The position numbers were made by a program, and so were the translations under genes. This document shows positions 5,323-46,037 of a stretch of DNA of 64,000 nucleotides, one piece after another. The stretch is taken from NCBI GenBank assembly GCA_019058315.1, contig JAHPZH010000003.1:716451-780450 (forward strand), given 5' to 3'. Source of the stretch: Candidatus Helarchaeota archaeon. Its GTDB lineage: Archaea > Asgardarchaeota > Lokiarchaeia > Helarchaeales > RDOG01. Each line of letters starts with the position of its first letter. Position 1 is the first letter of the stretch. The notes beneath the pieces are model-generated. The model saw only the letters and a program-made list of their open reading frames with translations, was not told the origin of the DNA and made no database searches.

Positions 5323-5435
5323 ATTTCTCTTCCTTTTATTTCGCTAATAAAATTCTTTTTATCAAATTTTAAACAATTATTCTTAAATTAAAGAATTGTT
5401 CCTTAAAAAACAGATTACTTTTCAAGGTTTCAAAT

Positions 5436-5705
5436 ATGTCAGACATCGACCATTTCAAACTCCTTTTTAAACCAAAGAATGTTGCTGTAGTAGGTGCCAC
5501 AGCAAATGAAACAAAAGTTGGGGCAATGGTAGTAAGTAATATCAAAGCATGTGGGTATAAAAATGAAATTTTTTGTGTAAATCCAAGTGAGAAATATAAA
5601 AGTAAAAAAATTTTTGGTTTGAAAGTATATCCGAATTTAAAGAGTATTCCAGAACAGGTTGATCTTGCAACTATTGTTGTTCCTCCAGACCTTGTTGTTC
5701 ATAGT
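5436..5705 (+). pseudogene. 5' fragment of an NDP-forming acyl-CoA synthetase alpha subunit, cut by the element
   Basis: 'PKNVAVVGAT...VNP...YPNLKSIPEQVDLATIVVP' CoA-binding domain; homology ends where the IS605-type end begins (~5706). Confidence 0.9.
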
Positions 5706-5900
5706 ATGAACTACCATTCAGCAAGCTGAATGGTATTCGTCCCGAATTTGTCATCATACTCCTTGCGGAGTCGGAGGGACTGGCTGGTCCACGCAGCCCT
5801 TTGCCGAACATCTCAGAGACCTCTTGATGTAAGGCACTGTGTCAAAGTTCGTGAATTGTCGGGAGACTTTGCCCCGCTTTTATCCGTATTAAAGGCACCA
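5690..5900 (-). ncRNA. Predicted TnpB omega-RNA (reRNA); 5' boundary approximate
   Basis: GC-richer segment overlapping the tnpB 3' end and ending in the right-end hairpin. By the TnpB rule the guide is the flank, ACTATGAACAACAAGG. Confidence 0.6.
5706..5738 (-). repeat. IS200/IS605-type right-end hairpin
   Basis: TACCATTCAGC-AA-GCTGAATGGTA (5712-5735). The minus strand reads GAAT-hairpin-AGTTCAT, matching the guide/cleavage-site layout of IS608/ISDra2 right ends. Confidence 0.85.
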
Positions 5901-7216
5901 TTAAGCATGGCGGAGGCTGATAAATCCACATTATCCGCTGCCAACAATCTCACCTTCCGAACCATCGGAAAGTTCTTAACTGAAGGCACTTTTTTAAACT
6001 TTGACAGCAAATTTATATATCCTATTATTGTTTTTAACCCATTATTTATCTTATAAGCACCACTATACAAATCGATGAGCCCCTTTAGTGCAATGTTCAA
6101 TGAAGCATTTCTATCCCTATGATCGACATGACCACAATTGCTGCATTTAAACAATCTCTTATGTTTATGGGATTCTTTTTTAGTTTGGCAGAGCACACAG
6201 TTCTGGGAAGTATAGTGGGGACTCACGGCATAATTTGGATACCCGCGTATGAATGCTTTATACGTAATAAAATCTTGCAATTTTTTAAAACCCCAATGAT
6301 GGTACTTCAAATTATTCTTTTTACCCCAGTTTATATTATCCATAATATTTGTAAGATCTTCGAAAATAACCACAGGGTTTTGAAACTTCGAAATCCACTT
6401 AACTGCTACTTTGCTTGCGAGATGAAGGACATGATTTGTGATTTTTTGCTGCTTTCGCCCTATTTTTTTTATCATTGATTTATTGTTAACTTTTTGTAAT
6501 CTTTTTCGTATCTTAAAAAATTTATACCGTTGATAGACAAGGGGTGAAAAATCGATTATAAGTGATCCTAACACAACACCTCTGACATTCACGGCACTTA
6601 AAGCTACATTAGTCGTATTATTATCAATACCGATAAAAGTGTGATCCGTAGAACCATCAAATATCGGTTTTTTTCCTAAGTCCATATTAACAATCAAATA
6701 ATATTTTTTACCAATTTTCTTCAAATTTGCAGCCCCAAATTTTAGGGCTTCTGCAAGTCCCAGCTCGACTAATTTCATATGTCGCTCTGAACCTATAAAT
6801 TCCAAGATCAACCTTTCGTCCTTTCTCACACTAATTCTAACGCGATTTTTCGCTAAAATCTTATATCCTTCTTTATAATTGAGACGGGAAGTCATTAACC
6901 CATTCACAAGACTCGGTGGGCTTGCTCGTGGGTCCGTTTTTCGCTTTGCTAAATACGATTTTATCGATTCGCTAGTCACATCCCGGCAACATTGCCTAGT
7001 ATTTGCCAATATATTCGTTTTTACTTGACATTTCTCAAGAAAAGTTTTAGAATATCGACCGAGCTTGTTCCAATGCTCCAGATATTGGTTGTAGACCGCT
7101 CCAAACTCTCTCATAAGATCGTCCAATTGGTTTTTCACCTTTTTCGAGGTAACCAAAAGCTTGAATTTCAGCGCAATTATTAGGTTATCTTTTTTATTTT
7201 TACTATTCCATGGCAT
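5813..7216 (-). CDS. tnpB: TnpB RNA-guided endonuclease
   Basis: RuvC-I FIGID, RuvC-II IFEDL, YTSQxCxxC...CxxC Zn finger, RuvC-III HRDRNASLNI. Confidence 0.92.
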   Translation of the reverse strand: MPWNSKNKKDNLIIALKFKLLVTSKKVKNQLDDLMREFGAVYNQYLEHWNKLGRYSKTFLEKCQVKTNILANTRQCCRDVTSESIKSYLAKRKTDPRASPPSLVNGLMTSRLNYKEGYKILAKNRVRISVRKDERLILEFIGSERHMKLVELGLAEALKFGAANLKKIGKKYYLIVNMDLGKKPIFDGSTDHTFIGIDNNTTNVALSAVNVRGVVLGSLIIDFSPLVYQRYKFFKIRKRLQKVNNKSMIKKIGRKQQKITNHVLHLASKVAVKWISKFQNPVVIFEDLTNIMDNINWGKKNNLKYHHWGFKKLQDFITYKAFIRGYPNYAVSPHYTSQNCVLCQTKKESHKHKRLFKCSNCGHVDHRDRNASLNIALKGLIDLYSGAYKINNGLKTIIGYINLLSKFKKVPSVKNFPMVRKVRLLAADNVDLSASAMLNGAFNTDKSGAKSPDNSRTLTQCLTSRGL

Positions 7217-7497
7217 AACTTATTTATTATTCATTCATATATAAACCCCACTAATAATTTGGTTCAAAACAGACTTTTTCAAAACTTTATGACTATGAAC
7301 TTTAACATTCGCCGCTTTCCCCCGTTTCTCGACCTCATATCTGCTCTTAAATAAGCCTAGAGCCGGATTTGAGTCTAAAATCTTAAATTTATCATAAAGA
7401 AAAATGCATCAATTTTGCACTTTTTCGAAAGTGGTCTAAGAAAAAATTTAAATATTAGTCATCAAGCCCGACTACTACAAAATTTTTTCAAAAATTA

Positions 7498-10400
7498 ATG
7501 AAAATTTTGGAGTTGAAAAAGATGCCCGCAATGTCGTCATACTTTAATAAATTGAAATTACATCTAGAAAGGAATGATATTGAAGAAGATAAATTATATG
7601 AACATCAGAAAAGAGCTCACAAATTACTATTTGAGGGGTTTAATTTCTCAGCATTTGTTCCAACAGGTTTCGGAAAAACGGAAGACGCCCTTGCAGCTAT
7701 TGGACATGCCTTATATTGTAATTTGGTAGCGGTTTATCTTGTTCCCCGGGTGATGCTGCTCCACCAAAAAGCCAGACTATTGAAAACCTTCTTTAAGGGG
7801 GTAGCAAGGGTTATTGTCATCCAGGGGGATTTAAAACCTCATCCCAGGGAGTTGAAGGATCCATGGGGAAAGCTCATAATCGTAGCTACATTTGAAAGCT
7901 TCAGAGCTTTCCTATTTTCAGTCCAGAAAAGGCGATATTTTGATAGAAAAACGAATATCTTCGGTTCGGTAGTTATTGACGAAGTGCACATGCTCGGGGA
8001 TAGGACCCATGGACCTTCTCTTGAGACGATGCTGTATAAGTTGCACAAGGAACATGATTCTCAGTTTTGTTTTTTGAGTGGGAGTTTTGAAAAGAGCTCT
8101 GCTGATTGGTGGTGTAAAAGGTTCAACTGTAAATTAGAATACATGTCTCACGAAAGGGATTTTTATTGCTGGAATATTTACGCCGAGCAGTCTACTTTTA
8201 AATGGAAAGATGACAAGATCAAAGAATTATGCAATGAATTTTTAGAATTTCATATATCCCACGATATTCAGGATTTAGCAGAAATACGCCCCGGAAAGAT
8301 GGTGATTTTTATCAGTACTCGCAAAAGAACGGAAATTTATTGTAATAACGTTAAAAACTCCTTAGAATCGAGCAGACCGAACTATAAGGAACATTTTAAA
8401 TGCAGTTTTATTCATGCGGGCATGACATTGGAAGAAAGAAAACAAATTTTTGATGATTTTAACAGCGATAAAGGTGTTAGATTTCTTTTTTGTACAACAG
8501 TGATTGAAGTAGGTATCGATATAAAAAACATTGAAGTGGTCTTGATCGAAGATGCCCATAAATATTCAGCCATTAAAAGAACTCAAATGATTGGGAGGAT
8601 GAGGTTAAATCATGGAGTTGTCATAAATATGATTCCTCTATTTGCTAAACGCCGTTTTAAAAGATCTATCATATATGAGAAAACATATGCAGCGAAAAAG
8701 ATCTTACCTAGTGTAAATTTTGCACTGTTTAGCTGGTATTATTGGTTTTCTGGGAGAAAAAGAATATTTTGGAGTATAGAGTATCCTTCGGAAGAAAGTG
8801 AGAAAGATAGAACGATATTTCATTATTCTGATACAGAACCCATTAGAGGATATAAATTAGAAAAGATTACTAGCCGAATCGATCTTAGACATCTGCCTGA
8901 CCTAATCCTTGAATCGTTATTTCGAACCCAAAAGAGTTTATCACAAATAGAAGATCATTTAAAGAGCATAATGGGGGAGTATGTATTAGTAGATAGAAAT
9001 AAGAAAACGATCAAAAGGAAAATTCATGAATTCGTAGGTATGAAATATATAAGGTCTACTGGAAGCAAATTTAGTCTTACATATATTGGGGAGGCTATAG
9101 TGGAGGGACACTTACCATATTTTTTTGCTGATAGGATTCTAAGAACATTTGAGGTTTTTCCCGAGCTCCCTACTCGAGAAATAAAACTGTTAATTGGGGA
9201 ACTGGTCGCGATGAAAGAAGCTAGTTCCAAGAAGATGTGGGATGTAGAAATGTTCATTAAAAATTACAGTAAAGATCCGATTATATTTACCGAAAATCTT
9301 GAAAAATATAAAATTTTAAAAGGGGATGCGGAGGTTTATCGCCGTTGTGCTGCTTGGATAGCTAGCGCTATTTACCTACTCTATCGGGGATATCAATTTC
9401 ATAATTTTGTTGAAGAAATTCGAACTAACATCGAATGTATAAATTCTGTGTTGTTTTGGGCTAAATTTCATAGAAGAAACCTGGATTACCACCATGTGGC
9501 ACTAAAAGAGCCAAGGAAATTGTCTAAAAGAATTTGTAATAGAATAAATCGAATTATTAAAACGTTTCAAAAATCTGGGGTGAGGGTGAATCTGCAAAAA
9601 CCACCCATGTGGCCCTATCAGAAATATCATGATTCTAAAGGAGCTGCCGTTTTAAACAACAAGATTATTGAAGTATTAGGAGAATCTGATGATGAGGGAC
9701 TTACTATATTTGAAATGGCTCAAAAAATTAACTCTGACCCCGACTTCAAAAACACCCTTATTACAGAGTCCAGAATTGCAGGACGGTTGAAAAACAGCCT
9801 AGCATCACGGGTTGAGCGCATCAAGGTTTATACCAATACGGGGGCACCCCATTTTAGATATTACTTAAAGGGAAACCTGCCCGAGCAAAGCGAGTTCACA
9901 TGCGCAAATTGTAATAATTTTGAAAAAGACCCGGCTAAGCGAATTTCGACAGCGGGTACAGTTTATACCTGCCAAAAATTAGAGATGGCAGTAAACGCAA
10001 ATAACCCTTCGTGTGCTCATTTTGAGCCCTATGAAAATGAATCTAGGACGTTTGCTACTTTTCCATTCAAATGGAACATTGAAGTATGCCCCAAATGTAA
10101 TGCTAGAAAAACTATTAGAGTGCCTCAACATGGAGAAGCTACCATTTGTAAGCGCTGTAACGTCCTTGTTGAGCGAACGGACAACGGTACTTTTAGAGCG
10201 ACTACAAGGCATAAAGTCTCAGAAAATATTGTCCAAACTGACGATAAGGGGATGAAATATATTGAGACCGACCCGAATAAGAGGGTAGTTTATGTTCCAA
10301 CAGACCATACATTAACAACAGAATACATTCCCGAAGGAAATTATTATATAGTCAAAGTACGCGGACTTGGAATACGTTCTTTTTTAAAACAGGTCGCTGA

Positions 10401-19045: not shown

Positions 19046-19207
19046 ATGACGTATAAAATTGAATATTTTTATTTTGATTACAGTTTGGTATTAACGTGTT
19101 CATGTGGTAGAGTTTCTAAGCAATTCGGTTCGAACCATACCAATACGTTCAAGTGTTCGTGCGGATTAACATTTAAAGTGTTGCCAGAAGTAGTTAAAAT
19201 TAAATAA
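19046..19207 (+). CDS. 53-aa Zn-ribbon microprotein, copy 2
   Basis: Near-identical to 18481-18642 (CSCG...CSCG). Confidence 0.75.
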   Translation: MTYKIEYFYFDYSLVLTCSCGRVSKQFGSNHTNTFKCSCGLTFKVLPEVVKIK

Positions 19208-19319
19208 AAGGTTTATCTCAACAAAAAATTTAATAATTATAAACGACAATTTTTTAATCACAAGCTATTAGAGAGGGCATATTGTAATTGCGCTTTAAGA
19301 GCTTAAATTCTATTATTTC

Positions 19320-19892
19320 ATGAGGGTTAGAATGGATAGATCAAAATTTTTATTCTTAACAACTAAACACGGGAGACTTTCATTCGAAAGACCACCTAAG
19401 GGAATGAAAGATGTTATAATTGCAATTACCAGAAAAAATTTAGAGATAAAATCTAAAAAAACAGGAGAAATAAAGAAAATTCCTCTCAAACAGATAGAAA
19501 TGGCAGAAAAAATAGATAGTTCAAAAACTAGCTATGTAGGAACAGCCTTGTTTGGGACACCTCCGACTCAAGATAGAAAAATATACACAAAAATAATAGC
19601 TAAAAAAAGAAAACCTTTTTATATTACATTTATAAGTGGAATGTCTGGTTGGCAAGTGGATTTACACGATGAGTTCTATTCAATTTTGAAATCTAGAATT
19701 GATAAAATAGAAAAAGAAAGCGAATTACAAAAGTTAAAAGAATTGCAAAAACCCACCAATGTTTTTTATATAAATATTCCACCACAGACAAAATTAGCAG
19801 CTTTAAAATGTCCTTCATGCCAAGCACCATTAGAATATATGCCCCCTTGTAAATGTGAGCATTGTGGAGTCATGATTGAGTTAATGAAATAA
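19320..19892 (+). CDS. PH-like beta domain plus shared C-terminal Zn-ribbon tail
   Basis: Tail IPPQTKLAALKCPSCQAPLEYMPPCKCEHCGVMIELMK. The PH-like fold is an inference. Confidence 0.7.
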   Translation: MRVRMDRSKFLFLTTKHGRLSFERPPKGMKDVIIAITRKNLEIKSKKTGEIKKIPLKQIEMAEKIDSSKTSYVGTALFGTPPTQDRKIYTKIIAKKRKPFYITFISGMSGWQVDLHDEFYSILKSRIDKIEKESELQKLKELQKPTNVFYINIPPQTKLAALKCPSCQAPLEYMPPCKCEHCGVMIELMK

Positions 19893-19895
19893 AAA

Positions 19896-20048
19896 ATGGG
19901 ATCAAAGGGAATGTCTGAAATTACTCTATTTGAAGCAGCTCGACATTGTTATTATTCATTAGAACCTAAGGGAGATAAAATCGATGTCTTTCTCAAAATC
20001 ACTAAAAATGAGTTAAAAATTTGGGTTAAGGTGCTCGATAAAGATTAG
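19896..20048 (+). pseudogene. Truncated PH-like domain gene (50 aa)
   Basis: ITLFEAARHCYYSLEP...FLKITKNELKIW resembles the second domain of 56179-57039. Confidence 0.45.
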
Positions 20049-20104
20049 CCATAAGAGATTAAAGGTTAAATGTGAATGATAAAAATAAATGGGAGTAACA
20101 CACC

Positions 20105-20881
20105 TTGAAAGAATTTCTTGAACGATTGGAATGGATGAAAATAAACAAAATCAAAAATAATTCAGAAAAAAATGCACTAGTTGAGTTAAAAAATAGATAC
20201 GGATTACAAAATGAAGACTTTGAATTGGATAAAAGTGGTCATATAATAAAACTGAAAATAATCGGCAAGAAATTACATTTAATTCCAGAAATTTTAAGTG
20301 TCTTTTCCCAGTTACAAGATTTGAATCTTTCAAATAATGAAATTGTGAAAATAGAAAAGCTTGAAAATTTAACCCAATTAAAAGAATTAGACCTTAGTAA
20401 AAATCAGATAACAAAGATATCGGGTCTAGAAGACTTTACTAAGTTCCGAAAATTAGATCTTATGGGAAATCCTCTAGAGAAAGAAGATCAAGTTGTATAT
20501 AAAAAGGGAATAGCTACAGTAATTAAATATTGCCAAAAAAATAAAAGAATAGAGCTATTTAAAAAAAACTTACTTGATTATATTGCTCCTTATGATGAAA
20601 TGACATTTAAAAAAATAGCAGATCATTTCGAATTGGATGTGCTATTTGTTGAAAATGAGATTAAAAATATGTTAGAAAGTAAAAAAATTATTGGCAGATT
20701 GTTTCCTGATAAAATTATCTTAAGAGAATTAAGTCCGAAAATCGATCAGACTGTATATATAACAATTCCACCTAAAACAAAATTGACTGCCTTAAAATGT
20801 CCTTCTTGTCAAGCACCCCTAGAATACATACCTCCCTGTAAATGTGAGCATTGTGGGGTTATGATTGAATTAATGAAATAA
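20105..20881 (+). CDS. LRR plus PCI-like winged helix plus shared Zn-ribbon tail
   Basis: LxxLxLSxNxI repeats; 'YDEMTFKKIADHF..VENEIKNML..IIGRL'; same tail as 19320. Confidence 0.75.
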   Translation: MKEFLERLEWMKINKIKNNSEKNALVELKNRYGLQNEDFELDKSGHIIKLKIIGKKLHLIPEILSVFSQLQDLNLSNNEIVKIEKLENLTQLKELDLSKNQITKISGLEDFTKFRKLDLMGNPLEKEDQVVYKKGIATVIKYCQKNKRIELFKKNLLDYIAPYDEMTFKKIADHFELDVLFVENEIKNMLESKKIIGRLFPDKIILRELSPKIDQTVYITIPPKTKLTALKCPSCQAPLEYIPPCKCEHCGVMIELMK

Positions 20882-20978
20882 GAGAAGAAATTTTATGTTT
20901 AATACGGTTGGTACATAAATGATCCCCGTTGGCATCCTGAACAATGTTTAGATGATGAAAATATAGTAACTACATATA

Positions 20979-21092
20979 TTAACTTGTGCATGTGGTAGAG
21001 TATCCAAGCAATTAGGTTTGAACCATACAAATACATTCAAGTGTCCGTACGGGTTAACATATAAAGTGTTGCCGGAAGTAGTTAAAATTTAA
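20979..21092 (+). pseudogene. 5'-truncated third copy of the Zn-ribbon microgene
   Basis: LTCACGRVSKQLGLNHTNTFKCPYGLTYKVLPEVVKI*; in-frame stop upstream and a Cys->Tyr change. Confidence 0.75.
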
Positions 21093-21185
21093 TAATTATA
21101 CATATTAATAATAATTGATATATTAATTCAAAGATTATTTGAGGATCTTTTTTGAGGAGAAAATTATGAAATGGAGGTTTAAACC

Positions 21186-22172
21186 ATTACCGTAAGATCC
21201 GAAGATGTATTATTTCATTGTGAGAAACATGGCAGATTTACAAAGGAAATGACCTATTTTTATAGGATGATAGATTCAAGAATCTCAATAATTAATAAAA
21301 TTATTATAATTAGCCCGAAGAAGAGAAACCTTGGTGAAGTACGGATAGATATTGATAAAATCAAAACGATTAAGATGCATAAAGATAGCTTGAAAGGACC
21401 GGAACCATATTATGAAATTATTCTTGATAATAAAGAAAAATTTTTCATTACTTTTGCCTCTACATGGGGTTCTTCTACAAAAAATCTTCATAAACAATTT
21501 AAAGAAGTATTAAACCAGAAGTTAGGTATTTCTATAAAGCAAGGAATAGATAGAACTGGACCACCTGCATTTTCTTTTAAAATGGCTCCCAGAACGAGTT
21601 TAAAAGAAGAAAAACCATCATTATTTTTTGCTGAAAAACACGGTAGATATTCCGTGCAAAGACCACCAAAAGGATTAAAGGATTCATTTATAAAAATCAG
21701 CAAAGAGAATTTAACAATAGCAATAAAGATTTCTGGAGAGAGAATTAGAGTTCCACTTATAAATATAGATGTTGCTGAAAGAATCGATAGCTCTAAAACA
21801 AGTTATGTTGGCACAGCATTATTCGGAACTCCTCCTGTTCAACAAAGGAAAATTTATACTAAGATTATAACCAAAACGGGACAATCTTTCTATGTAACAT
21901 TTATAAGCGGAATGTCGGGTTGGCAAGTAGAACTACACGATGAATTTTATGCAATTTTAAGGTCACAGCTTGATAGAATTCAAAAGGAAAAAGAATTAGA
22001 AGAACTTAAGAAGATGCAGAAACCAACCAACGTATTTTACATAAATATCCCACCACAAACAAAATTATCTGCTCTAACAGCTTTAAAATGTCCTTCATGT
22101 CAAGCACCTTTGGAATATATGCCACCCTGTAAATGTGAGCATTGCGGGGTTATGATTGAATTAATGAAATAA
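21186..22172 (+). CDS. Tandem PH-like domains plus shared Zn-ribbon tail
   Basis: Second domain is very similar to 19320. Start extended from ATG 21249 to ATT 21186, which follows GGAGG and restores the 'FHCEKHGRFTK' motif. Confidence 0.7.
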   Translation: MTVRSEDVLFHCEKHGRFTKEMTYFYRMIDSRISIINKIIIISPKKRNLGEVRIDIDKIKTIKMHKDSLKGPEPYYEIILDNKEKFFITFASTWGSSTKNLHKQFKEVLNQKLGISIKQGIDRTGPPAFSFKMAPRTSLKEEKPSLFFAEKHGRYSVQRPPKGLKDSFIKISKENLTIAIKISGERIRVPLINIDVAERIDSSKTSYVGTALFGTPPVQQRKIYTKIITKTGQSFYVTFISGMSGWQVELHDEFYAILRSQLDRIQKEKELEELKKMQKPTNVFYINIPPQTKLSALTALKCPSCQAPLEYMPPCKCEHCGVMIELMK

Positions 22173-22196
22173 ATAGAAGTAGAATGAGGAAAAGAT

Positions 22197-23156
22197 ATGA
22201 CAGACATAAATGATCTTTCTATTTTCGGGGATTATTCTAATCTGGAGAATAGGGTGACTGTTGCTCTATTACATATTTTTAATGCTGGTAAAGAAGAACT
22301 CATTAGGTTTATTGCCAACAAAATCAAGATAACTCTGCCTTCTAGTGAGATTGATATAATATCCCAAGAAAAGCAACAAGAATCTATTCCAGATGGCACA
22401 TTAAAATGTGGTTTTATGTTTAATCTCTTTATTGAGAGTAAAATAAAACAAAATAGTATAAATACAACTCAGTTAATGAACCATAAAAAAGCTGTAGAAA
22501 AAGTAACCCTAACGAATCCTAACTCATTTTTGTTATATCTCACACCAGACACCAATAAACCAACAGAGCTTGATGAGGAGGTTTACTGGACTAATTGGGA
22601 TTCAATAATTTCTTGGCTAAAAGAATACATTGAGTCCCATGAAGAAGAAGAACTGAAATCCAATTCACTTCTGATCTACTTGGTGGAACAACTTGAAGTC
22701 CTACTTATTAACAAGTCTATAATTTCAGGTGAATGGAATTTTAGTCAGAACGATAAAGTACTGATAGTCGGTGGTAAGGACTTTGGAGAAAAAACTGCAA
22801 TTGAATGTGGTAAATATTTCAGTCAGGGTAATAGGACTTTCCGACCTTCTGGATATATAGCGTTTTATTACAACCATCGAATAGAATATTGTTTTGAGAT
22901 TATTGAACCACCCAAAGAGAACCAAAAATTAATGGACTATCAAGATCTATTTAATATCATCAAAGAAAAGGGTGCTGAAAATGCAGATTGGGTTAAAGAA
23001 CCAAAGAGAATTTTTATTTTAGGAAAACGAGTCCCCATTCAAATAATCCATAATGATAAAAAGAATAGACATGGCGATCCTACTGCTTTCACTTACAATC
23101 AGACTTATACAACTATTGACAAATTAAAAAAAGCAAAATTAACTTCAGAATTATGA
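22197..23156 (+). CDS. PD-(D/E)XK-type nuclease-domain protein (putative defence)
   Basis: EN..T...IPDG...FIESK...QL motif. Confidence 0.65.
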   Translation: MTDINDLSIFGDYSNLENRVTVALLHIFNAGKEELIRFIANKIKITLPSSEIDIISQEKQQESIPDGTLKCGFMFNLFIESKIKQNSINTTQLMNHKKAVEKVTLTNPNSFLLYLTPDTNKPTELDEEVYWTNWDSIISWLKEYIESHEEEELKSNSLLIYLVEQLEVLLINKSIISGEWNFSQNDKVLIVGGKDFGEKTAIECGKYFSQGNRTFRPSGYIAFYYNHRIEYCFEIIEPPKENQKLMDYQDLFNIIKEKGAENADWVKEPKRIFILGKRVPIQIIHNDKKNRHGDPTAFTYNQTYTTIDKLKKAKLTSEL

Positions 23157-23184
23157 TTAAATTGAAATGCAGTGAATGGTTAGC

Positions 23185-23651
23185 ATGATTTTTCATGTAA
23201 TAGGTCTCCATTGTGCTGGAAAATCCACATTCATCAAAAAAAATTTCCAAGTGCAGTAGTCCTGGACATGAAAAAATTCTATAAAACCCATGATTTCCTA
23301 CCCGCAACCTCCTATCATGACAGGACCGCACATACTTTGGAACATGAATTTCAAGATTGCCTGAAGGAGGCAAAAAAGAACAATAAAATCTTGGTCGTGG
23401 AGAGTTCGGGGACAAATCAGAGGGTGAATCAGTTGGTTGCGGAACATGACCATATCACCATTTTAGTCGTGACTCCCTTGGAGATTGTAAGGGAACGGAT
23501 TGAGAAGGAGAAAGATCCGGAGTTTGATGCGGAAACGCTGAATAATGCGGTATTGGAGGGGCTGGCAGCGGGGAGGGTGCAATTTGATACGAAATATTTT
23601 ACTCAGTTAGATAGATTTTATCCTGATTTGAAAATTAAAGAATTTGGATAA
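23185..23651 (+). CDS. P-loop (NMP-kinase-like) protein split by a -1 frame break in an A8 run
   Basis: ATG 23185 gives IFHVIGLHCAGKSTF (Walker A). It continues in the -1 frame (23211-23651 ORF) at the A8 run 23236-23243. Confidence 0.7.
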
Positions 23652-24303
23652 TGGTGAAATATTTTGTCGATTATTGATTTAATTACGGTTTTAAATATTA
23701 AAATGCTCATCTAATTTATGAAGGGGAGTTTTAAAAAAAATAATAAAAAGAAAAAATTTAGATAATATAACAGAAAATTATCCTAAATAAAAAAAAGGAT
23801 AATTTAGACAAATTTTAAAAAATATACTTTATTATGAAATAGATTTTTGATTAATTAGCGAATTCCTAATAAAAAATATTAATTAAATCATAAATATAAA
23901 GAAAATAAAGAAAATTAAAAAAAATGGACATTTGAAAATGAAATAAAAATTTTAAAAAAATTAAATTACAAATTGGAGATGTTAAAAAGAGAAGGTATTG
24001 TCAAAAAGAGAAAATAATAAGAAGTTAAGTAAAAGGAACTTTGGTTATCCCATTTTTAAGCTTAAACTTAAAAAAGACAAAATCAGGTCGACATCCATTA
24101 TTCTGTCATATTAGGACAACCTGGTTCCGAAATAACTTACTCTTTCTTCTTTAAAAAAGTTTGGATTTCTAAAGACATGTCAATAACTATCTAAAGATTT
24201 ATCTAAAAGAACATGACGATTTCTAAAAAGTATAATCATTTATCTAATTAAAATTTCATTTCTCAAAATCCTCCAAAACATTATATCTGAAAAGAAAAAA
24301 GGA

Positions 24304-24915
24304 TTGTTATTAAATCTGACTGAACTAAAAAAACCAATTGATAAAAATCAATATAAAAAAAGCGAAATTGATTTTATAAAATATTTTAAAGTGAATAGAA
24401 TTGAATCAATAATAAATCAATTTACTATACTTTTAGAAAAATCAAGTAAAGAAGAAGAGATTCAAAAATTTTTAGAAAAATATCCTATTCTAATCAATCA
24501 ATATTCCAAAGTCTATCCAAAATTTAAATTAGGTGAAAATTACATAACGGATTTTGTTATTAAAAATATACTTGACCAAGGGATTCATTATACTTTAGTT
24601 GAAATAGAAAAATCAAATATGCGAGTGTTAAATAAGGATCGGACTTTCACCTCAGATTTTAACAAGGCATATAAGCAAGTTTTGGATTGGAAAGTGTGGC
24701 TCCAAAAAAATCAAGTTTATATCCAAGGGAAATTGGAAGGTTTTGAAAGCCCATCATTCATAATTATTGGTGGGCGTTCAGAAGGTATTTCAGAAAAGGG
24801 AAAAGAAAATATTCGAGCATGGAATAGGAGCCAAAATAATATCAAATTTTATACTTATGATGATATTTTAAAAAGAGTAGAAGAATATTTAAATAACATA
24901 AAGCAATATTCGTAA
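24304..24915 (+). CDS. DUF4263 / Shedu (SduA)-like nuclease domain
   Basis: EEEIQKFLE, DF, VEIEK, QVLDW, IIIGGR, TYDD. Confidence 0.8.
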   Translation: MLLNLTELKKPIDKNQYKKSEIDFIKYFKVNRIESIINQFTILLEKSSKEEEIQKFLEKYPILINQYSKVYPKFKLGENYITDFVIKNILDQGIHYTLVEIEKSNMRVLNKDRTFTSDFNKAYKQVLDWKVWLQKNQVYIQGKLEGFESPSFIIIGGRSEGISEKGKENIRAWNRSQNNIKFYTYDDILKRVEEYLNNIKQYS

Positions 24916-24923
24916 GGGATAAA

Positions 24924-25274
24924 TTGTCAAAAGAAAGGGAACTCATTGTAGAGTTCGAGAAATACAAGAGGAACAAAATTGAAAATTTCAAATATGAACA
25001 TAGATCACGTCTTAAAGACCAGTTCCGTTTTTTAGTAGATTTGATAGTGAATAAGATTCCCTTGGACTCGGAAGTGGATTTTGGGGGGTTAAGTGGGATG
25101 TGTAAGTGTGGGAAGAAAATAAGTAGGGGGTCTTTATACAAGGATGGTACGGTCGTAGGTTCTACCTGTGCAAGAACCTTGAGTAATATTGCCACCGAAT
25201 TTTCCATGATCGAGCAATTTATTTTATTGAAAGAAGAGGAATTAAATAGGAAATTAAAAGAATTAAGAGGTTAA
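24924..25274 (+). CDS. Hypothetical protein with Cys cluster
   Basis: CKCGKKI...VGSTCA. Confidence 0.55.
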   Translation: MSKERELIVEFEKYKRNKIENFKYEHRSRLKDQFRFLVDLIVNKIPLDSEVDFGGLSGMCKCGKKISRGSLYKDGTVVGSTCARTLSNIATEFSMIEQFILLKEEELNRKLKELRG

Positions 25275-25705
25275 GCGTGATAATCCCTAATTAATTCTTC
25301 CCTCAATTCTGCCTTTAAACTCTTTTTAATGTTTAATATTAAATCTTTTCTAATTTGGTATTGTTTTTGACTTCCTTTTATCTGTTCAATCTGTTCATTA
25401 AAAAATTTTGATATTTTATCTATGGGATCTCTATCAAATCCTAATTCTGTTTGTATATCATCAAAACATTCCTTACAGAAGTCATCAATAGACTGACAAA
25501 TTTCATAATCTGAACTATATGATAGATTTTTTCCACAAATTAGGCATTTATTATACGTTTCTTCTTCTTTCTTCTTATCAATTTTATAAAAAACCCAATA
25601 AATAAAATATTGAATGTCATCTGGTTTGAAAAATGTGTGGTTATAGACTTCTTTAACACTTTTTACCAAATTTTTTATTAACTTGAATTTTTCATTTCTG
25701 TTCAT
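25271..25705 (-). CDS. Hypothetical Zn-finger protein
   Basis: CLICG...CKEC. Confidence 0.55.
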   Translation of the reverse strand: MNRNEKFKLIKNLVKSVKEVYNHTFFKPDDIQYFIYWVFYKIDKKKEEETYNKCLICGKNLSYSSDYEICQSIDDFCKECFDDIQTELGFDRDPIDKISKFFNEQIEQIKGSQKQYQIRKDLILNIKKSLKAELREELIRDYHA

Positions 25706-25758
25706 TTTTTGCCACCATTTTATATCATTTTATATATATCCATTTCATTCTCTAAAGT

Positions 25759-26805
25759 CTATGGTAGAATCCCACCCCATTTTTGAAAAATTATTTTTTC
25801 TTTTTTTAATCGAGGTAAGTCAAATTCATTTACAGGAATATTCGATTCTCCATGTCTTTGATAATATGTTAATTTATCTGTTTTAACTGCGTATAATTGA
25901 GGCATTCTTGGAATAAAAAAGACCAATACTATTTTGCCATTTTTAAGTTTGATTTCGTTGTAAATAACACCTTTTGTAGGTTCTAGAAATGGTGAAAGGT
26001 GGTTAAAAGAATTAAGAACATGTTGAACTTCACTTGGTGAAATTCCTTTTATTTCTTTAATTTGACTATTTTCTTCAAAAATCCCAATAATTATATGCCC
26101 TCCTTTGGTATTGGCAAATGCAGATATGGTTTTTGCTAACTTTTCTCCCTTTGAAATTGATTTAAATTCAATGAAGACACGTTTATTATGGTCAAGAAAA
26201 GAACCTTCCCGAATTAACTTATTTTTTAATTTAATTATAGTATCCATAGTAACATTTTCAATAGAATCAGGTATTAAATAATTAATTTCATGGAGAGAAT
26301 ATCTACCCAATTCTGTAATTTCCCAGTAAGAATTTCTAATAATTTTTGCTAAATCTTCGAGATAAATTCCTATATCATCATAGAGAAAATCTTTAATTTT
26401 TTCATAATCTTCTTTTTTTGAATTTATTTCCTCAAAAATATCTTTATAATAAACAAAACAATGTGTTGGATTTCTTTCCCAAGCTTTATTTAATATCCTT
26501 AAGACATCATCCCCTACTTTTTTAAAGAATTGAGTTTCTAAGAATTCTTCATGGACTAATATTCCATAAGAACCGATTTGTAATTCGAAAAATTCCTCAT
26601 CAACATCTCCCTGAGCTGCTATCCAAACATAAAATCCTTTAGATTTGCCATCATATAATGCTCTTTTTAATTGAACTATTTCAATATGTTTATAATTTTT
26701 TTGAAGATAATCTAATACCTCAGTAAATTTAGATGGTTTTCCTTCTAATTTCTTATCATATAAAAACTTAATAGTTACTTTTTGTATTGCAGTAATTTCA
26801 AACAA
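25759..26805 (-). CDS. Protein with C-terminal AlbA_2 (Schlafen-like) domain
   Basis: IEFK...KTISAFANTKGGHIIIGI...YYQRHG. Confidence 0.85.
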   Translation of the reverse strand: MFEITAIQKVTIKFLYDKKLEGKPSKFTEVLDYLQKNYKHIEIVQLKRALYDGKSKGFYVWIAAQGDVDEEFFELQIGSYGILVHEEFLETQFFKKVGDDVLRILNKAWERNPTHCFVYYKDIFEEINSKKEDYEKIKDFLYDDIGIYLEDLAKIIRNSYWEITELGRYSLHEINYLIPDSIENVTMDTIIKLKNKLIREGSFLDHNKRVFIEFKSISKGEKLAKTISAFANTKGGHIIIGIFEENSQIKEIKGISPSEVQHVLNSFNHLSPFLEPTKGVIYNEIKLKNGKIVLVFFIPRMPQLYAVKTDKLTYYQRHGESNIPVNEFDLPRLKKEKIIFQKWGGILP

Positions 26806-27123
26806 TCATGATACCTCCAATCCAACGCTTATTAACTCAGAACGGACAATCCGATAAAATAAATTAGATAATAATTTTTTAGCTAGATAATAAATTGAAT
26901 TAGTGGGTACTTTATCAAATGAGATATGAATACTTTTTTTAGTCACTTTAACTTTAAAATCTAATAATTTGAACTTGGAAAGGGTAGGATAAGAATATTT
27001 CATAATTAGTTCAAATTTCTTTTTCGAATTTTCAACACCTTCTTGAAGTACTCTTGAAATATTGTCAAAACCTTCAATGCTACCTGACCTAACTTTAATC
27101 TTATTCCATCTTAAATTATACAA
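26806..27123 (-). CDS. Hypothetical protein
   Basis: Abuts the AlbA_2 gene; no recognised motif. Confidence 0.45.
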   Translation of the reverse strand: MYNLRWNKIKVRSGSIEGFDNISRVLQEGVENSKKKFELIMKYSYPTLSKFKLLDFKVKVTKKSIHISFDKVPTNSIYYLAKKLLSNLFYRIVRSELISVGLEVS

Positions 27124-27377
27124 TTTATATTTCTTCCAAGATCCTTATTAAAATTTACTCCATAAGTAAAATTTTCCCGTTATCTGTTATTTTTTAACAG
27201 TTTCTTACTTATTAATTTTAAGTCATCTCTCTCCCCTCTTAAGAACCTAAGATTAAGTGACATATTTTGACTTTGAACCCCGACTCACATAGTCGTTTCG
27301 ACATAATTTTCGGTAAAAAGGGAAAGAGTTATACAAAAACCAAAAGAATTAATAACCGATCTTCGGGGTATTAAACA

Positions 27378-27824
27378 ATGAGTGATGACAACACATTGCC
27401 GACCTCAAGAATCCCACCTCTTGATAAAATTTTTTCTTCTAAGGGTAGGATAAGTATATTATTCACCCTCTTAGAAGCGTTAGAACTCAATATAACCGAA
27501 ATAGTAAGGAGAACCCGCTTAAACCATGCAACTGCGGTAAAACATTTGGAGAAATTAGCTGCTTATAAGGTGGTTATAGAAAAGGTATACGGAGTGGGTG
27601 GGAGTATTCGAATTTTTCGGTTAAATGTGGAAAATTCCTTTATAAAATTATTGCGATTTGTGTATCAAATCTTCAAAAAAAAGGGACTTCTGAGTGAAGA
27701 TGACATGGATAGAGTAATGCAGTTTAATATTTTCACGGAGAACCTCGGAAAAGGGGCTAATACTGATAAAGACCTGAGACATTTGATTGATCATTGGAAA
27801 GTGACGTATGGGAATTCTTCATAA
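27378..27824 (+). CDS. ArsR-like winged-HTH protein
   Basis: FSSKGRISIL..ELNITEIVRRTRLNH...HLEKL. Confidence 0.8.
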   Translation: MSDDNTLPTSRIPPLDKIFSSKGRISILFTLLEALELNITEIVRRTRLNHATAVKHLEKLAAYKVVIEKVYGVGGSIRIFRLNVENSFIKLLRFVYQIFKKKGLLSEDDMDRVMQFNIFTENLGKGANTDKDLRHLIDHWKVTYGNSS

Positions 27825-27869
27825 TCAATTACTTTATCCTCTCTTTTTTTCCTAAAAAATTCTCTTCAT

Positions 27870-28523
27870 TTATTCTTTATCGACTTTTTCTACTCTACTT
27901 TCTAAAAAAAATAATATTCCAGTTTTCATCATGGCAGCTGTTAAAGGTAATGCTGCAAGGATCCACCATAGGGAATCGATCATTGAAGGTATTTTCAAAT
28001 AATCGATAATTTTAACAATAAGGAAACTCGGCACACAAAGAACAGACCAAAAATAATAATTCATATAAGCTTTTAAAAAAAAGGGAGCAAATACCAGATT
28101 AATACAGCTAAAAGAGTAAATTAAAAAACCAGAAATTAGACCCAACTTTTGATAGTGTAAGATATTATTTTGTTTAATAAAATTAATTCCAAATAATAAA
28201 AAAAAGAAAGCTAATGAGATATATTCAAAATATTGCAGTCTTAATTGCTCAAATAATTCTGTTGGAACAGAAATAACACGTGGTCTTATAAAATTATAAA
28301 AGAGAGTATAAAAACCTAGATATAATGAAAAGAAAAAAATAAACAGAGAAAATTTTGTTTTATCTGATTTATATGATTCAATGCATGTAAATCCCACTAA
28401 AATATAGCTTCCACAAAATAAATAAGGTAAGATTACATGATCGAGACTAAAAAAGAGCCTTAAAATTTGAAGAACAGAATACATAAGTGCACCTATTCCT
28501 CCTAATATGTATAATTGTTTCAA
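27870..28523 (-). CDS. Multi-pass membrane protein
   Basis: ~6-7 hydrophobic segments. Confidence 0.6.
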   Translation of the reverse strand: MKQLYILGGIGALMYSVLQILRLFFSLDHVILPYLFCGSYILVGFTCIESYKSDKTKFSLFIFFFSLYLGFYTLFYNFIRPRVISVPTELFEQLRLQYFEYISLAFFFLLFGINFIKQNNILHYQKLGLISGFLIYSFSCINLVFAPFFLKAYMNYYFWSVLCVPSFLIVKIIDYLKIPSMIDSLWWILAALPLTAAMMKTGILFFLESRVEKVDKE

Positions 28524-28695
28524 AAGAATCCCTTTTAATCTTATAATAAAAGAACTTGATTAGTTTCTAATATTTAAGAATTCCTACTTTTTGGTAGAAA
28601 TTTCCTTAAAGATAGTTGCTTGAAATTAATTACGATTTTGTAAGTTCCATAGAAATAAATTGCCTTCATTCAGTAATATTAATAGCTAAGAACAT

Positions 28696-29205
28696 CTATA
28701 TTTTATTTCCACATTTCATACAAAATTTTGAATTAGAAGGGATTTTTTCCCCACATTGAGGGCAGAAAATACCGTCTATGGAAGTTGCCGAAATTTTTGA
28801 ATTTAAGAAATCATAGATATCTTCTAATAAATTTATGTCAAAATTAGTCCACTTACTAAATACCGTTATAAAATGTTCAGTATCGTCTGTTTCTATAATT
28901 TTAATCCAAAATGCTCCATCCCACCAAGCTTTAGTTCCCCTAGCAAGACTTTTTGCTATTTTGGAACCAGTTCCTTCTCTCCATCTTATCTTTTTTAACT
29001 CTTTAATTTGTTTAATCGGTATTATTATATCATCATATTTTTTTTTCTTCGGTAAAATTGAAAGAAGATCATCTGTAATAGTTATTACTGAATCGAGTGC
29101 TCCTGATCCACAAAAAGTAAATGAACTTTTCCTTATTTTGCCTTCTTCATTTCTATACTTTCCATGTTTTTTTATATTAAATTCTTCCGTTTTTATCCAC
29201 CTCAT
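28696..29205 (-). CDS. PH-like domain plus C-terminal zinc ribbon
   Basis: KHG..R motif shared with 19320/21186; FCPQCG...FCMKCG. Confidence 0.7.
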   Translation of the reverse strand: MRWIKTEEFNIKKHGKYRNEEGKIRKSSFTFCGSGALDSVITITDDLLSILPKKKKYDDIIIPIKQIKELKKIRWREGTGSKIAKSLARGTKAWWDGAFWIKIIETDDTEHFITVFSKWTNFDINLLEDIYDFLNSKISATSIDGIFCPQCGEKIPSNSKFCMKCGNKI

Positions 29206-29337
29206 TTAAAAGTTGAAAAAAAATAGTGATTAATTATTTACTCCTCTTACTCACCATTCTTTTTGATAATATATTTTTTATTATGTTTTAAGTGATATTA
29301 ATAAATTTACTTTTTTCCATAGGAGAGTCGTCTATAT

Positions 29338-43234: not shown

Positions 43235-43509
43235 TTTAGCATTCTCCTATCCCTAATAAGAAATATCGAATGTATTAAATTTAATCTTACATTCTAAAAT
43301 ACTAATTAATGTCAACACATATTATTCCAATCTCTCCATAAATATATCTCCTTTTAAGATCGTTTTAAAATCCTCCACATGTAAATTTAAATTATTATTA
43401 TTTGATTCGAGATATGTTATCTTTAATGTAATATTCTTTTTTCTAATGATTCAGTGATACAAAAGAAACGCGCTTAGTTTATTTATTACTTATATCCTTT
43501 TTTTGAGAA

Positions 43510-43689
43510 TTATGATAATATTTCTTTAAAATCTGTTTTATGATTTGCTAAATATTCAATTATTGCATGTCTCATAATATCTGATTTTGAGGGAAATTTC
43601 TTACTCTCAACTAATCTCTCCAATTGTTCGTTAATATGTCTCACTACATGAACAGTGACTATTATCGTTTCTTCTGAAATATCAGGTAT
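43510..43689 (-). CDS. CopG/RHH transcriptional regulator (absent from ORF track; no upstream ATG/GTG/TTG start)
   Basis: IVTVHVVRHINEQLERLVESKKFPSKSDIMRHAIIEYL; frame open 43698-43510. Confidence 0.7.
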   Translation of the reverse strand: MPDISEETIIVTVHVVRHINEQLERLVESKKFPSKSDIMRHAIIEYLANHKTDFKEILS

Positions 43690-43740
43690 ATGACCACGTT
43701 AATAAATCGGGCTCAAAAAATGGAGAAACATCATTCAATT

Positions 43741-45479: not shown

Positions 45480-45530
45480 AATCAATAGTTTCACCTTTTA
45501 ATAACAGAATTTTATCAAGCTAGAGAATCT

Positions 45531-45550
45531 CTTTATAAATCTTTTTGTCG
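45531..45550 (-). promoter_or_regulatory. BRE/TATA promoter of the radA-like operon
   Basis: Minus strand CGACAAAAAGA-TTTATAAA about 55 nt upstream of the start. Confidence 0.5.
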
Positions 45551-45561
45551 TGCCAAGGTTA

Positions 45562-45642
45562 TCCGAAGACAAGATTACAGTAGATATTTTAAAGAAATTA
45601 ATTGAATATCGAAAATTTTTAGAGGCAAATAATGCACTTTAA
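45562..45642 (+). pseudogene. Possible orphan 3' tail of the interrupted acyl-CoA synthetase
   Basis: SEDKITVDILKKLIEYRKFLEANNAL* resembles the terminal helix of ACD alpha subunits; same strand as the 5' fragment. Confidence 0.35.
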
Positions 45643-45891: not shown

Positions 45892-46037
45892 ATATTTAAC
45901 TCCTAAATTATTTTAATAAAAGAAATATATATTAATGATAATAATTTTAAAAACTATTTTAAATAATTTATGAATTTACCAAAAAAATAGATTAATAAAA
46001 AGAATTTTTTTCTATCAATAACTGAAATAATATTGAA

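What the first reader, a model, noticed from the sequence alone, without database searches (positions are those of the whole stretch)
5813..7497. Catalytically complete TnpB with no TnpA and no visible left end
Seen: all three RuvC acidic residues are present. After tnpB the host gene does not resume; a 281-bp spacer leads head-to-head into the Cas1 fusion. Inference: TnpB has been adopted by the Cas1 element. A TnpB-Cas1 pairing without an array is relevant to how type V CRISPR systems arose.
Basis: partly seen in the sequence, partly recalled or inferred. Interest (0 to 1): 0.7.

Follow-up and report, generated by a model that had tools for sequence, protein, structure and literature searches.

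The report
Asgard Cas1-helicase/TnpB transposon copy
An intact RNA-guided nuclease gene (TnpB) sits head-to-head with a giant helicase-Cas1 fusion gene in a Helarchaeota (Asgard archaeon) genome; the pairing is real and conserved, but it is a new copy of an Asgard 'aCas1-TnpB' element that has already been published.

Summary
The ORF at 5813-7216 (-) is a 467-aa TnpB with the RuvC residues D198, E286 and D368 and a CxxC..CxxC zinc finger. A 281-bp spacer leads head-to-head into a 2147-aa helicase-Cas1 fusion (aCas1H, 7498-13941). No Y1 or serine TnpA and no CRISPR array were found in the 5.8-Mb genome.

The pairing is not chance:
- The two genes recur as one unit elsewhere in the genome (81% nt identity).
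- A deleted third copy exists.
- A distant TnpB/aCas1H pair lies on contig C6.
- Three metagenomic relatives with 22-44% identical proteins keep the same arrangement.
- The nearest TnpBs outside the group have a Y1 TnpA in the slot that aCas1H fills here.

The right end is exact (…GGTAGTTCAT at 5706). A 98.7%-identical strain carries the uninterrupted acyl-CoA synthetase gene at that point.

A 164-nt candidate left end lies beyond aCas1H in two other copies but is missing here. This copy is fused at 13935 to a 31.6-kb cargo region, and 1.1 kb of the target gene is lost.

The kind is published (Altae-Tran 2023, citing Makarova 2020). Earlier notes of this scan report it on other Asgard DNA. I file it as a new member of a known kind.

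The parts
5436..5708 (+). 5' remnant (codons 1-~91) of the host ADP-forming acyl-CoA synthetase-like gene, the target of the insertion
   Evidence: CoA_binding_2 hit truncated at profile position 69 of 116. tblastn with paralogues and orthologues ends at 5705-5708. A 98.7%-identical contig of run X3 runs through 5707 into intact gene sequence.
5686..5705 (-). Predicted guide segment of the omega-RNA: the host flank read in tnpB sense, starting ACTATGAAC
   Evidence: Six right-end junctions diverge immediately after GTTCAT. The guide role is inferred from the established TnpB mechanism.
5706..5995 (-). Right end and omega-RNA-like scaffold. It carries a subterminal hairpin (5714-5733) and the terminal motif GGTAGTTCAT.
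   Evidence: Conserved at the nucleotide level even where the TnpB is 41% identical. RNAalifold predicts 63 pairs, 10 with compensatory changes. The hairpin has z = -3.7. The same end motif closes the distant C6 TnpB-like gene.
5813..7216 (-). tnpB, 467 aa, with the RuvC triad D198/E286/D368 and a CxxC..CxxC zinc finger
7217..7497 (.). 281-bp divergent intergenic spacer, with TATA-like boxes at 7238-7245 (for tnpB) and 7447-7454 (for aCas1H)
   Evidence: About 80% conserved between copies. The boxes were read from the sequence. The solo copy L031 keeps the spacer only up to 7455.
7498..13941 (+). aCas1H: SF2 helicase (residues ~30-370), Cas1 domain (~960-1330, with E1101/H1183/D1213/D1216), DHH-like motifs and a weak Rad51-like C-terminus
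   Evidence: Pfam and NCBIfam hits. E1101, H1183 and D1213 are invariant, and position 1216 is D or E, in 13 family members. The best, but weak, PDB hit is the casposase 6OPM.
13935..13936 (.). Point where homology to the deleted C2 copy ends, 2 codons before the aCas1H stop. In C2 and C6 a shared 164-nt candidate left end follows; in this window it is absent.
13936..45556 (.). 31.6-kb cargo or island region joined to the unit. It carries HEPN, Shedu SduA, Schlafen/AlbA_2, NACHT-PNP and LRR genes and ends with SSB-like and RadA-like genes.
   Evidence: Pfam scans. It is a collinear mosaic of C2:1-14647. It lies between the two remnants of the host gene.
45557..45642 (+). 3' remnant (last ~24 codons and the stop) of the same acyl-CoA synthetase gene, followed by syntenic host genes at 45667-47420
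   Evidence: tblastx and alignment with the intact orthologue locus L056.

Best explanation
This is one copy of the Asgard 'aCas1-TnpB' transposon-like unit, in a Candidatus Helarchaeota genome.

Shown:
- The unit is an intact TnpB gene plus a structured omega-RNA-like 3' region. It ends precisely at GGTAGTTCAT (window 5706).
- It is paired head-to-head with a catalytically complete helicase-Cas1 fusion (aCas1H).
- The two genes are inherited and copied together.
- aCas1H occupies the slot that a Y1 TnpA holds in the nearest outside relatives.
- The genome has no Y1 or serine TnpA.
- The insertion into an acyl-CoA synthetase gene is absent from a 98.7%-identical strain.

Inferred:
- aCas1H, and not a TnpA, moves the unit.
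- TnpB with its omega-RNA uses the flank just past the right end as a guide. It cuts element-free copies of the target, so that repair copies the element back. This is the established role of TnpB in IS200/IS605 elements.
- The TAM is probably an A/T-rich motif ending in TAT.
- The intact unit is about 8-10 kb with asymmetric ends and no target-site duplication. Its candidate left end is a 164-nt segment beyond aCas1H, seen in the C2 and C6 copies.
- The window copy has lost that left end. It is fused at 13935 to a 31.6-kb cargo region, and 1.1 kb of the target gene was lost. It therefore now acts, if at all, as the right-hand terminus of a 39.85-kb block.
For: Gene identity and active sites.

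The pair is copied as a unit:
- Window 5701-13804 matches C11:835914-843982 at 81% identity, running to the contig end.
- A deleted derivative lies at C2:383459-384600 and probably continues at C8:1-87.

The pair is conserved in divergent lineages:
- C6: a 502-aa TnpB-like gene facing a 2601-aa aCas1H.
- L032 and L033 in GCA_013375355.1.
- L040: TnpB 41-44% identical, helicase 40% identical.
- L045: a 573-aa TnpB facing a 2361-aa aCas1H.

Other evidence:
- The sister TnpBs P0007 and P0009 are paired with Y1_Tnp.
- No PF01797 or PF00239 hit in the genome.
- Six junctions share the exact right end and have unrelated flanks. Only 3 window-type right ends and 1 C6-type right end exist in the genome, and there are no solo ends.
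- The omega-RNA-like scaffold shows covariation.
- The empty site is seen in run X3. Its contig has 9 differences over 708 nt and continues past 5707 into intact gene sequence matching orthologue L056.
- The candidate left end is shared only by the C2 and C6 copies (86.6% over 164 nt) and is absent from the window.
- Flanks 5' of the proposed left boundaries or at the empty site read TCTAT (window empty site), TATAT (C2) and GATAT (L031).
- Literature: aCas1-associated TnpBs form two Asgard groups, with aCas1 proposed as the transposase (PMC10691335).
Against: - No transposition activity of any aCas1 has been shown.
- Neither the C2/C8 pair of flanks nor the C6 flanks show a target-site duplication or terminal inverted repeats. 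Known Cas1 and casposase integration produces these.
- In relative L044 a MerR-resolvase (IS607-type TnpA-like) gene lies 1.3 kb from an aCas1H. Earlier scan notes report IS607 chassis in other Asgard lineages. aCas1H could therefore be cargo and not the transposase.
- The 164-nt 'left end' rests on two loci only. It could be a conserved upstream region of a host gene.
- The C2-end/C8-start join and the C11-end/C2-start join are inferred across contig breaks.
- The window copy is not a clean insertion: 1.1 kb of target is missing and the left junction is absent.
- The TAM rests on three sites with 1-3 nt of boundary ambiguity.
- The published 'hypervariable region followed by GTTCACTCA' was not reproduced as described. 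Here GTAGTTCAY precedes the variable flank.
Confidence: 0.8

Rival explanations
1. The unit that entered the synthetase gene was the whole 39.85-kb block (5706-45556). On this reading it is a large integrative element, with TnpB-aCas1H at one terminus and SSB/RadA at the other, and the 8.2-kb pair is only its end module.
For: Foreign DNA fills the whole interval between the two remnants of the host gene, and host synteny resumes at 45667. C2:1-14647 is a collinear mosaic of window 14419-45240, including the SSB/RadA module at 87% identity. It probably continues copy B. Read depth beyond 13941 in the source sample suggests a second copy (table 2). The earlier scan note e1-5470926 reads it this way.
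Against: The window and C2 share no terminal sequence beyond 45265. 1.1 kb of the target is deleted, so this was not a simple insertion. The third copy (C2 end/C8 start) and the C6 element are bounded just past aCas1H by a shared 164-nt segment, which argues that the small unit is the basic element. Parts of the cargo also occur without aCas1H, at C1:20559-25203.
Confidence: 0.35
2. The TnpB region (5706-7455) is an independent TnpB-only insertion sequence that merely tends to land next to aCas1H genes. On this reading aCas1H is a host or defence gene unrelated to TnpB mobility.
For: One solo copy (L031, 86% nt identity) carries exactly window 7455-5702 without aCas1H. aCas1H paralogues on C7 and C1, and relative L044, have no TnpB neighbour.
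Against: The head-to-head pairing persists across TnpBs as low as 22-27% identical and aCas1H as low as 30-36% identical, with co-divergence of both genes. Homology between copies runs unbroken through the spacer. There are no TnpB-only copies or solo right ends in this genome. There is no TnpA to move such an IS. The L031 boundary coincides with the aCas1H TATA-like box, as expected for a deletion.
Confidence: 0.07
3. The pair is a domesticated, non-mobile RNA-guided system, either a defence system or a proto-type-V adaptation-effector module, kept within a defence island.
For: It borders a region rich in defence-type genes: HEPN, Shedu, Schlafen/AlbA_2 and NACHT. Both enzymes are catalytically intact. 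No TnpA is present.
Against: There is no array and no Cas2 domain among the neighbours scanned. The only 'spacer' is the insertion flank, which differs at every copy as expected for a transposon end. There are multiple copies with different flanks, and the insertion is polymorphic between near-identical strains.
Confidence: 0.08

Closest known systems
aCas1-associated TnpB loci of Asgard archaea (groups Cas1H-Asgard-1/-2; Altae-Tran et al. 2023 PNAS, PMC10691335; Cas1 variants from Makarova et al. 2020 CRISPR J, which I could not read here)
   Same: Asgard host; TnpB next to a Cas1 homologue fused to a helicase; no classical TnpA; a variable guide-like region next to a conserved GTTCA-type motif downstream of tnpB; several copies per genome.
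   Different: Here the conserved motif (GGTAGTTCAT) precedes the variable flank, whereas the paper describes GTTCACTCA following it. I found no flanking repeats. This copy lacks the candidate left end and is fused to a 31.6-kb cargo region.
IS200/IS605 elements with divergent tnpA-tnpB (for example ISDra2 and IS608) and their omega-RNA-guided TnpB
   Same: TnpB fold with an intact RuvC triad; an omega-RNA-like scaffold overlapping the 3' end of tnpB and ending at the right end; a subterminal right-end hairpin; asymmetric ends; no target duplication; the partner gene is head-to-head where tnpA sits. The nearest outside TnpBs (38-40% identity) are true Y1 TnpA partners.
   Different: There is no Y1 TnpA in the unit or in the genome. 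A 2147-aa helicase-Cas1-DHH fusion replaces it, and the unit is 8-10 kb compared with about 2 kb.
Casposons (Cas1 casposase with PolB, TIRs and a 14-15-bp TSD)
   Same: A Cas1-family integrase outside CRISPR, presumed to act as a transposase. The best, but weak, solved-structure match of the Cas1 part is the casposase 6OPM.
   Different: There is no PolB inside the unit; on C6 a PolB gene lies just outside the right end. There are no TIRs and no TSD. The Cas1 is fused to a helicase and a DHH nuclease, and the element carries TnpB.
Type V CRISPR-Cas (Cas12, with or without Cas1/Cas2/Cas4, plus an array)
   Same: A TnpB/Cas12-family RuvC nuclease encoded beside a Cas1-family integrase.
   Different: There is no CRISPR array and no Cas2. 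The nuclease scores as TnpB, not Cas12f. The Cas1 belongs to a rare Asgard-specific branch (28 clusters among 1.84 billion representatives).

Membership tests
TnpB (RNA-guided nuclease of IS200/IS605/IS607 elements) | Family HMM above the curated cut-off | tested here: met
   NCBIfam guided_TnpB scores 113.8 bits against a cut-off of 100; Pfam PF07282 scores 66 bits against 26.3.
TnpB (RNA-guided nuclease of IS200/IS605/IS607 elements) | RuvC D-E-D triad and zinc finger | tested here: met
   D198, E286, D368 and C340/C343/C358/C361.
TnpB (RNA-guided nuclease of IS200/IS605/IS607 elements) | Structured omega-RNA overlapping the 3' end of the gene and ending at the transposon right end, followed by a variable guide | tested here: inconclusive
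   A conserved 290-nt region has 63 predicted pairs, 10 of them compensatory, in only 6 sequences. The end is exact with unrelated flanks. No RNA data were available and there is no Rfam family.
TnpB (RNA-guided nuclease of IS200/IS605/IS607 elements) | Association with a Y1 or serine TnpA | tested here: not met
   None in the unit and none in the genome. The sister lineage does have a Y1 TnpA.
Asgard aCas1-TnpB loci (Cas1H-Asgard-1/-2) | Asgard archaeal host | tested here: met
   The closest proteins are named Candidatus Helarchaeota by NCBI.
Asgard aCas1-TnpB loci (Cas1H-Asgard-1/-2) | TnpB adjacent to a Cas1 homologue fused to a helicase, conserved across relatives | tested here: met
Asgard aCas1-TnpB loci (Cas1H-Asgard-1/-2) | Locus flanked by repeats | tested here: not met
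   No TIR or TSD lies between 5706 and 13935 or 45556. The C2/C8 and C6 flanks also show none.
Asgard aCas1-TnpB loci (Cas1H-Asgard-1/-2) | Hypervariable region downstream of tnpB beside a conserved T and a GTTCACTCA-like motif | tested here: inconclusive
   GTAGTTCA(T/C) is conserved at the right end in all lineages, including the Y1-linked ones, and the variable flank follows it. The exact published motif and order were not found.
Asgard aCas1-TnpB loci (Cas1H-Asgard-1/-2) | Placement inside the published TnpB clades | not testable with these tools
   The reference sequences and the supplement are not held.
Type V CRISPR-Cas | CRISPR array next to the effector | tested here: not met
   No array-like repeats in the window or near copy B.
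Type V CRISPR-Cas | Effector matches a Cas12 model above its cut-off | tested here: not met
   Cas12f2 scores 87.7 bits against a cut-off of 450.
Casposon | Cas1 together with a family B polymerase inside TIRs, with a TSD | tested here: not met
   No PolB between 5706 and 13941. The C6 PolB lies outside the right end. There are no TIRs or TSD.

The most novel reading that the evidence does not exclude
aCas1H elements may transpose by a right-end-anchored, duplication-free route, possibly through single-stranded DNA using the fused helicase and RecJ-like DHH nuclease. Loss or read-through of the left end would then let the element capture and co-mobilise tens of kilobases of neighbouring DNA. 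This would resemble one-ended transposition of IS91/ISCR elements. On this reading the window and copy B are such expanded derivatives, which carry a defence island behind a TnpB-guarded terminus.
Probability: 0.12. Interest if true: 0.75.

Novelty: new member of a known kind. Interest (0 to 1): 0.4.

Why it matters
The aCas1-TnpB elements are predicted from sequence but have never been tested. They are a natural case in which a Cas1-family integrase and a TnpB-family RNA-guided nuclease work in one mobile unit without an array. That bears on how adaptation and effector modules can come together.

This locus offers unusually concrete material for experiments:
- an exact right end;
- a predicted 20-nt guide;
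- a verified empty target site in a near-identical strain;
- a candidate TAM;
- a candidate left end from sister copies;
- a genome with no competing TnpA.

It does not reveal a new kind of system.

Tried and rejected
- Aloposons (PMC8813620) were considered as the giant-protein element and rejected. They have tandem 3000-6000-aa genes and tRNA integration, and no Cas1 or TnpB.
- The search for related loci with TnpB in genome contigs gave only an unrelated Bacilli hit. The same tool with the synthetase fragment in metagenome contigs gave a 37% paralogue.
- The search for homologous proteins on the Cas1 region (residues 900-1400) returned nothing, not even the query's own protein. The exhaustive representative search was used instead.
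- The window-type TnpB was not found in 80 related genomes, apart from weak matches in 2.
- The missing half of the target site was sought in the genome and not found.
- The empty site of the solo copy L031 could not be reconstructed from this genome, because homology starts about 35 nt past the right end.
- No RNA holder was listed for the stretch, so expression could not be examined.
- Joints in the read-laying output with 21-24-nt sides were treated as spurious.
- The GTAGTTCAT hit at C2:382819 lies in a BNR-like coding repeat and is chance.
- Pfam gave nothing reliable for aCas1H residues 380-960 and 1290-2147, and PDB sequence search gave nothing for residues 1300-2147.
- No complex prediction or structure prediction was run, because neither would change the verdict.
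Full report
**Observation**

The minus-strand ORF at 5813-7216 encodes a 467-aa protein. It passes the curated NCBIfam threshold for RNA-guided TnpB (113.8 vs 100 bits). It matches the Pfam Cas12f1-like TNB domain at 3.5e-18. It stays far below the Cas12f2 cut-off, at 87.7 vs 450 bits.

Alignment to solved TnpB/Cas12f chains places E286 (VIFEDL) and D368 (HRDRNAS) at RuvC-II and RuvC-III. In a nine-member alignment D198 (GIDNN) and D368 are invariant, and the zinc finger C340/C343/C358/C361 is present.

The gene starts 281 bp from, and head-to-head with, a 2147-aa ORF at 7498-13941. That ORF carries DEAD and Helicase_C domains at the N-terminus and a Cas1 domain near residues 960-1330. In 13 family members E1101, H1183 and D1213 are invariant and position 1216 is D or E, which is the Cas1 metal-site pattern. 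I call this protein aCas1H.

**Host gene**

The plus-strand ORF at 5436-5729 is the first ~91 codons of an ADP-forming acyl-CoA synthetase-like gene. Its homology ends at 5705-5708.

A metagenomic contig (L056) carries an intact 492-aa orthologue. It is followed by a small ORF, a metallo-beta-lactamase gene and a 151-aa ORF. These are the same genes that lie at 45667-47420 in the window.

The window keeps only the last ~24 codons of the synthetase, at 45557-45642. Codons ~92-465 are nowhere in the assembly. So 39.85 kb of other DNA (5706-45556) replaces 1.1 kb of the gene.

Contigs of a different sediment sample (run X3) cover 5000-5707 with 9 differences. They then continue into sequence that matches the intact orthologue. 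A near-identical strain therefore has the uninterrupted site, and the insertion is comparatively recent.

**The pair is one unit**

- Window 5701-13804 recurs at C11:835914-843982 at 81% identity. TnpB is 80% and aCas1H 77% identical at the protein level, and the match runs to the contig end.
- A third, internally deleted copy joins aCas1H residues 1924-2146 to TnpB residues 27-186 at C2:383459-384600. It probably continues at C8:1-87. That join crosses a contig break and is an inference.
- On C6 a distant TnpB-like gene (502 aa, 22-27% identical) is again head-to-head with a 2601-aa aCas1H that is 36% identical.
- In another Helarchaeota MAG, TnpBs of 86% and 41% identity face a DEAD helicase at contig ends.
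- In L040 a 41-44% identical TnpB faces a helicase that is 40% identical to aCas1H.
- In L045 a 573-aa TnpB faces a 2361-aa aCas1H.
- The aCas1 domain family is rare: 28 representative clusters at E <= 1e-3 among 1.84 billion.
- aCas1H paralogues on C7 and C1 and the relative L044 lack a TnpB neighbour. The association is frequent but not obligatory.

**What aCas1H replaces**

The next-closest TnpBs (P0007 and P0009, 38-40% identical) are canonical IS200/IS605 partners, head-to-head with a Y1 TnpA. aCas1H sits in exactly that slot.

The own genome (94% complete) has no PF01797 and no PF00239 hit, while the controls ring. It has six TnpB-family hits.

**Ends**

Six independent junctions end in …ACCATTCAGCTTGCTGAATGGTAGTTCAT and diverge immediately afterwards. 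They are the window, copy B, C8, L031, L032 and L033.

- The distant C6 element ends in …CGGTAGTTCAT.
- L040 ends in GGCAGTTCAC, and the Y1-linked relatives end in GGGTAGTTCACAG.
- Genome-wide there are only three window-type right ends and one C6-type right end, and no solo ends.
- The last 290 nt (5995-5706) are conserved at the nucleotide level far beyond the coding sequence. They fold into a consensus structure with 10 compensatory pairs. One long-range helix involves the terminal GTTCAT.
- The subterminal DNA hairpin has z = -3.7.

I read this region as the omega-RNA scaffold and right end, with the guide being the flank (window 5705 downwards).

On the other side, homology to the C2 copy stops at 13935, two codons before the aCas1H stop. 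In C2, after a 13-nt gap, a 164-nt segment follows. The only other place it occurs in the genome is 46 nt past the stop of the C6 aCas1H, at 86.6% identity. Beyond this segment the two loci differ. The window has no copy of it.

This segment is my candidate left end. It would make the basic element 8-10 kb with asymmetric ends and no target duplication. The window copy (and probably copy B) has lost it. Copy B probably continues in C2:1-14647, a collinear mosaic of window 14419-45240.

The flanks 5' of the proposed left boundaries read TATAT (C2) and GATAT (L031). The empty site reads TCTAT directly 5' of the predicted target. That suggests a TAM ending in TAT. It rests on three sites with some boundary ambiguity.

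**The solo copy**

L031, from another MAG, carries window 7455-5702 without aCas1H. Its boundary falls at the TATA-like box (7447-7454) that presumably drives aCas1H. It is closest to the paired copy L032 of the same MAG. I read it as a deletion derivative, not as proof of an IS605 left end in the spacer.

**Mechanism**

Shown:
- both enzymes are intact;
- the two genes are co-inherited;
- the right end is exact;
- the empty site exists in a close strain;
- no TnpA is present.

Inferred from established TnpB biology: the omega-RNA guide targets the element-free allele, so that repair restores the element.

Inferred from position and from the lack of alternatives: aCas1H is the transposase. This is also the proposal in PMC10691335.

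Against that inference:
- There are no TIRs or TSDs, which Cas1 and casposase chemistry would predict.
- A resolvase gene lies near an aCas1H in L044.
- Earlier scan notes report IS607 chassis in other Asgard lineages.

The missing 1.1 kb of target and the absent left junction show that this copy did not arrive by a clean cut-and-paste. I could not decide whether the 39.85-kb block moved as a whole or whether the 8.2-kb unit was joined to an island by later rearrangement. I give the block model 0.35.

**Comparison and novelty**

The kind is published. Altae-Tran et al. 2023 describe aCas1-associated TnpBs in two Asgard groups and propose aCas1 as the transposase. Makarova et al. 2020, which I could not read here, describe the Cas1 variants.

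Earlier notes of this scan report the same kind on other Asgard DNA and on this genome's second copy.

What this locus adds:
- the Y1-TnpA sister relationship;
- the exact right end and its conservation across TnpB clades;
- a candidate left end;
- an empty site with a candidate TAM;
- a left-end-less copy fused to a defence-rich cargo region.

It is not a type V system, because it has no array, no Cas2 domain among the neighbours scanned and a sub-threshold Cas12f score. It is not a casposon, because it has no internal PolB, no TIRs and no TSD.

Verdict: a new member of a known kind, of moderate interest.

Noticed in passing
G000:C6:300168-312708 (L034): A family B DNA polymerase gene (882 aa) lies 55 bp downstream of the C6 TnpB-like gene. 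This looks casposon-like at first sight, but the GGTAGTTCAT right end lies between them, so PolB is outside the element. The C6 element (about 9.85 kb) appears complete, with both the right end and the 164-nt candidate left end.
   Followed up: partly
window 1330-2811 (-) and dozens of loci on C1, C2, C3, C5, C9 and C11: A very large paralogous family of BNR-like repeat proteins with internal ~177-bp periodicity. More than 100 BLAST segments at 65-75% identity are spread across the genome.
   Followed up: no
window 13936-45556: A cargo region rich in defence-type genes: HepT-like HEPN (17393-17905), LRR-PCI (20105-20881), Shedu SduA_C (24304-24915), Schlafen/AlbA_2 (25759-26805) and a 1477-aa PNP_UDP-NACHT protein (38801-43234). 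It ends with SSB-like OB (43741-44442) and RadA/Rad51-like (44439-45494) genes. Parts recur at C2:1-14647, C1:20559-25203 and C11:940-6944.
   Followed up: partly
G000:C7:30992-42035 (L035) and G000:C1:395417-402590 (L036): Two further aCas1H paralogues have no TnpB neighbour. The C7 copy (2772 aa) sits beside a LAGLIDADG-domain protein and a CapR/zinc-ribbon protein. The C1 copy (1474 aa) has a C-terminal leucine-rich-repeat region in place of the DHH/Rad51-like part.
   Followed up: no
L031:14346-21302 (GCA_013375355.1): A type III CRISPR-Cas effector cluster (Cas10 with HD, several RAMP genes) lies about 3 kb downstream of the solo TnpB copy in the other Helarchaeota MAG.
   Followed up: no
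G000:C10:1-237: Four evenly spaced copies of a 20-mer at a contig start. This is the only CRISPR-like signal found by a simple scan of the genome.
   Followed up: no
G000:C8:80-230: Immediately after the right end on C8, the flank holds two similar 18-nt stretches (ATGAGTTCTTTAGAATCA and ATGAGTTTTTCAGAATCA) 48 nt apart, at the start of a membrane-protein ORF. The first ATG is formed partly by the last two bases of the right end.
   Followed up: no
L044:8363-8959: A MerR-HTH/resolvase (IS607-type TnpA-like) gene lies 1.3 kb downstream of a 2051-aa aCas1H that has no adjacent TnpB. This hints that some family members ride on serine-recombinase chassis.
   Followed up: partly
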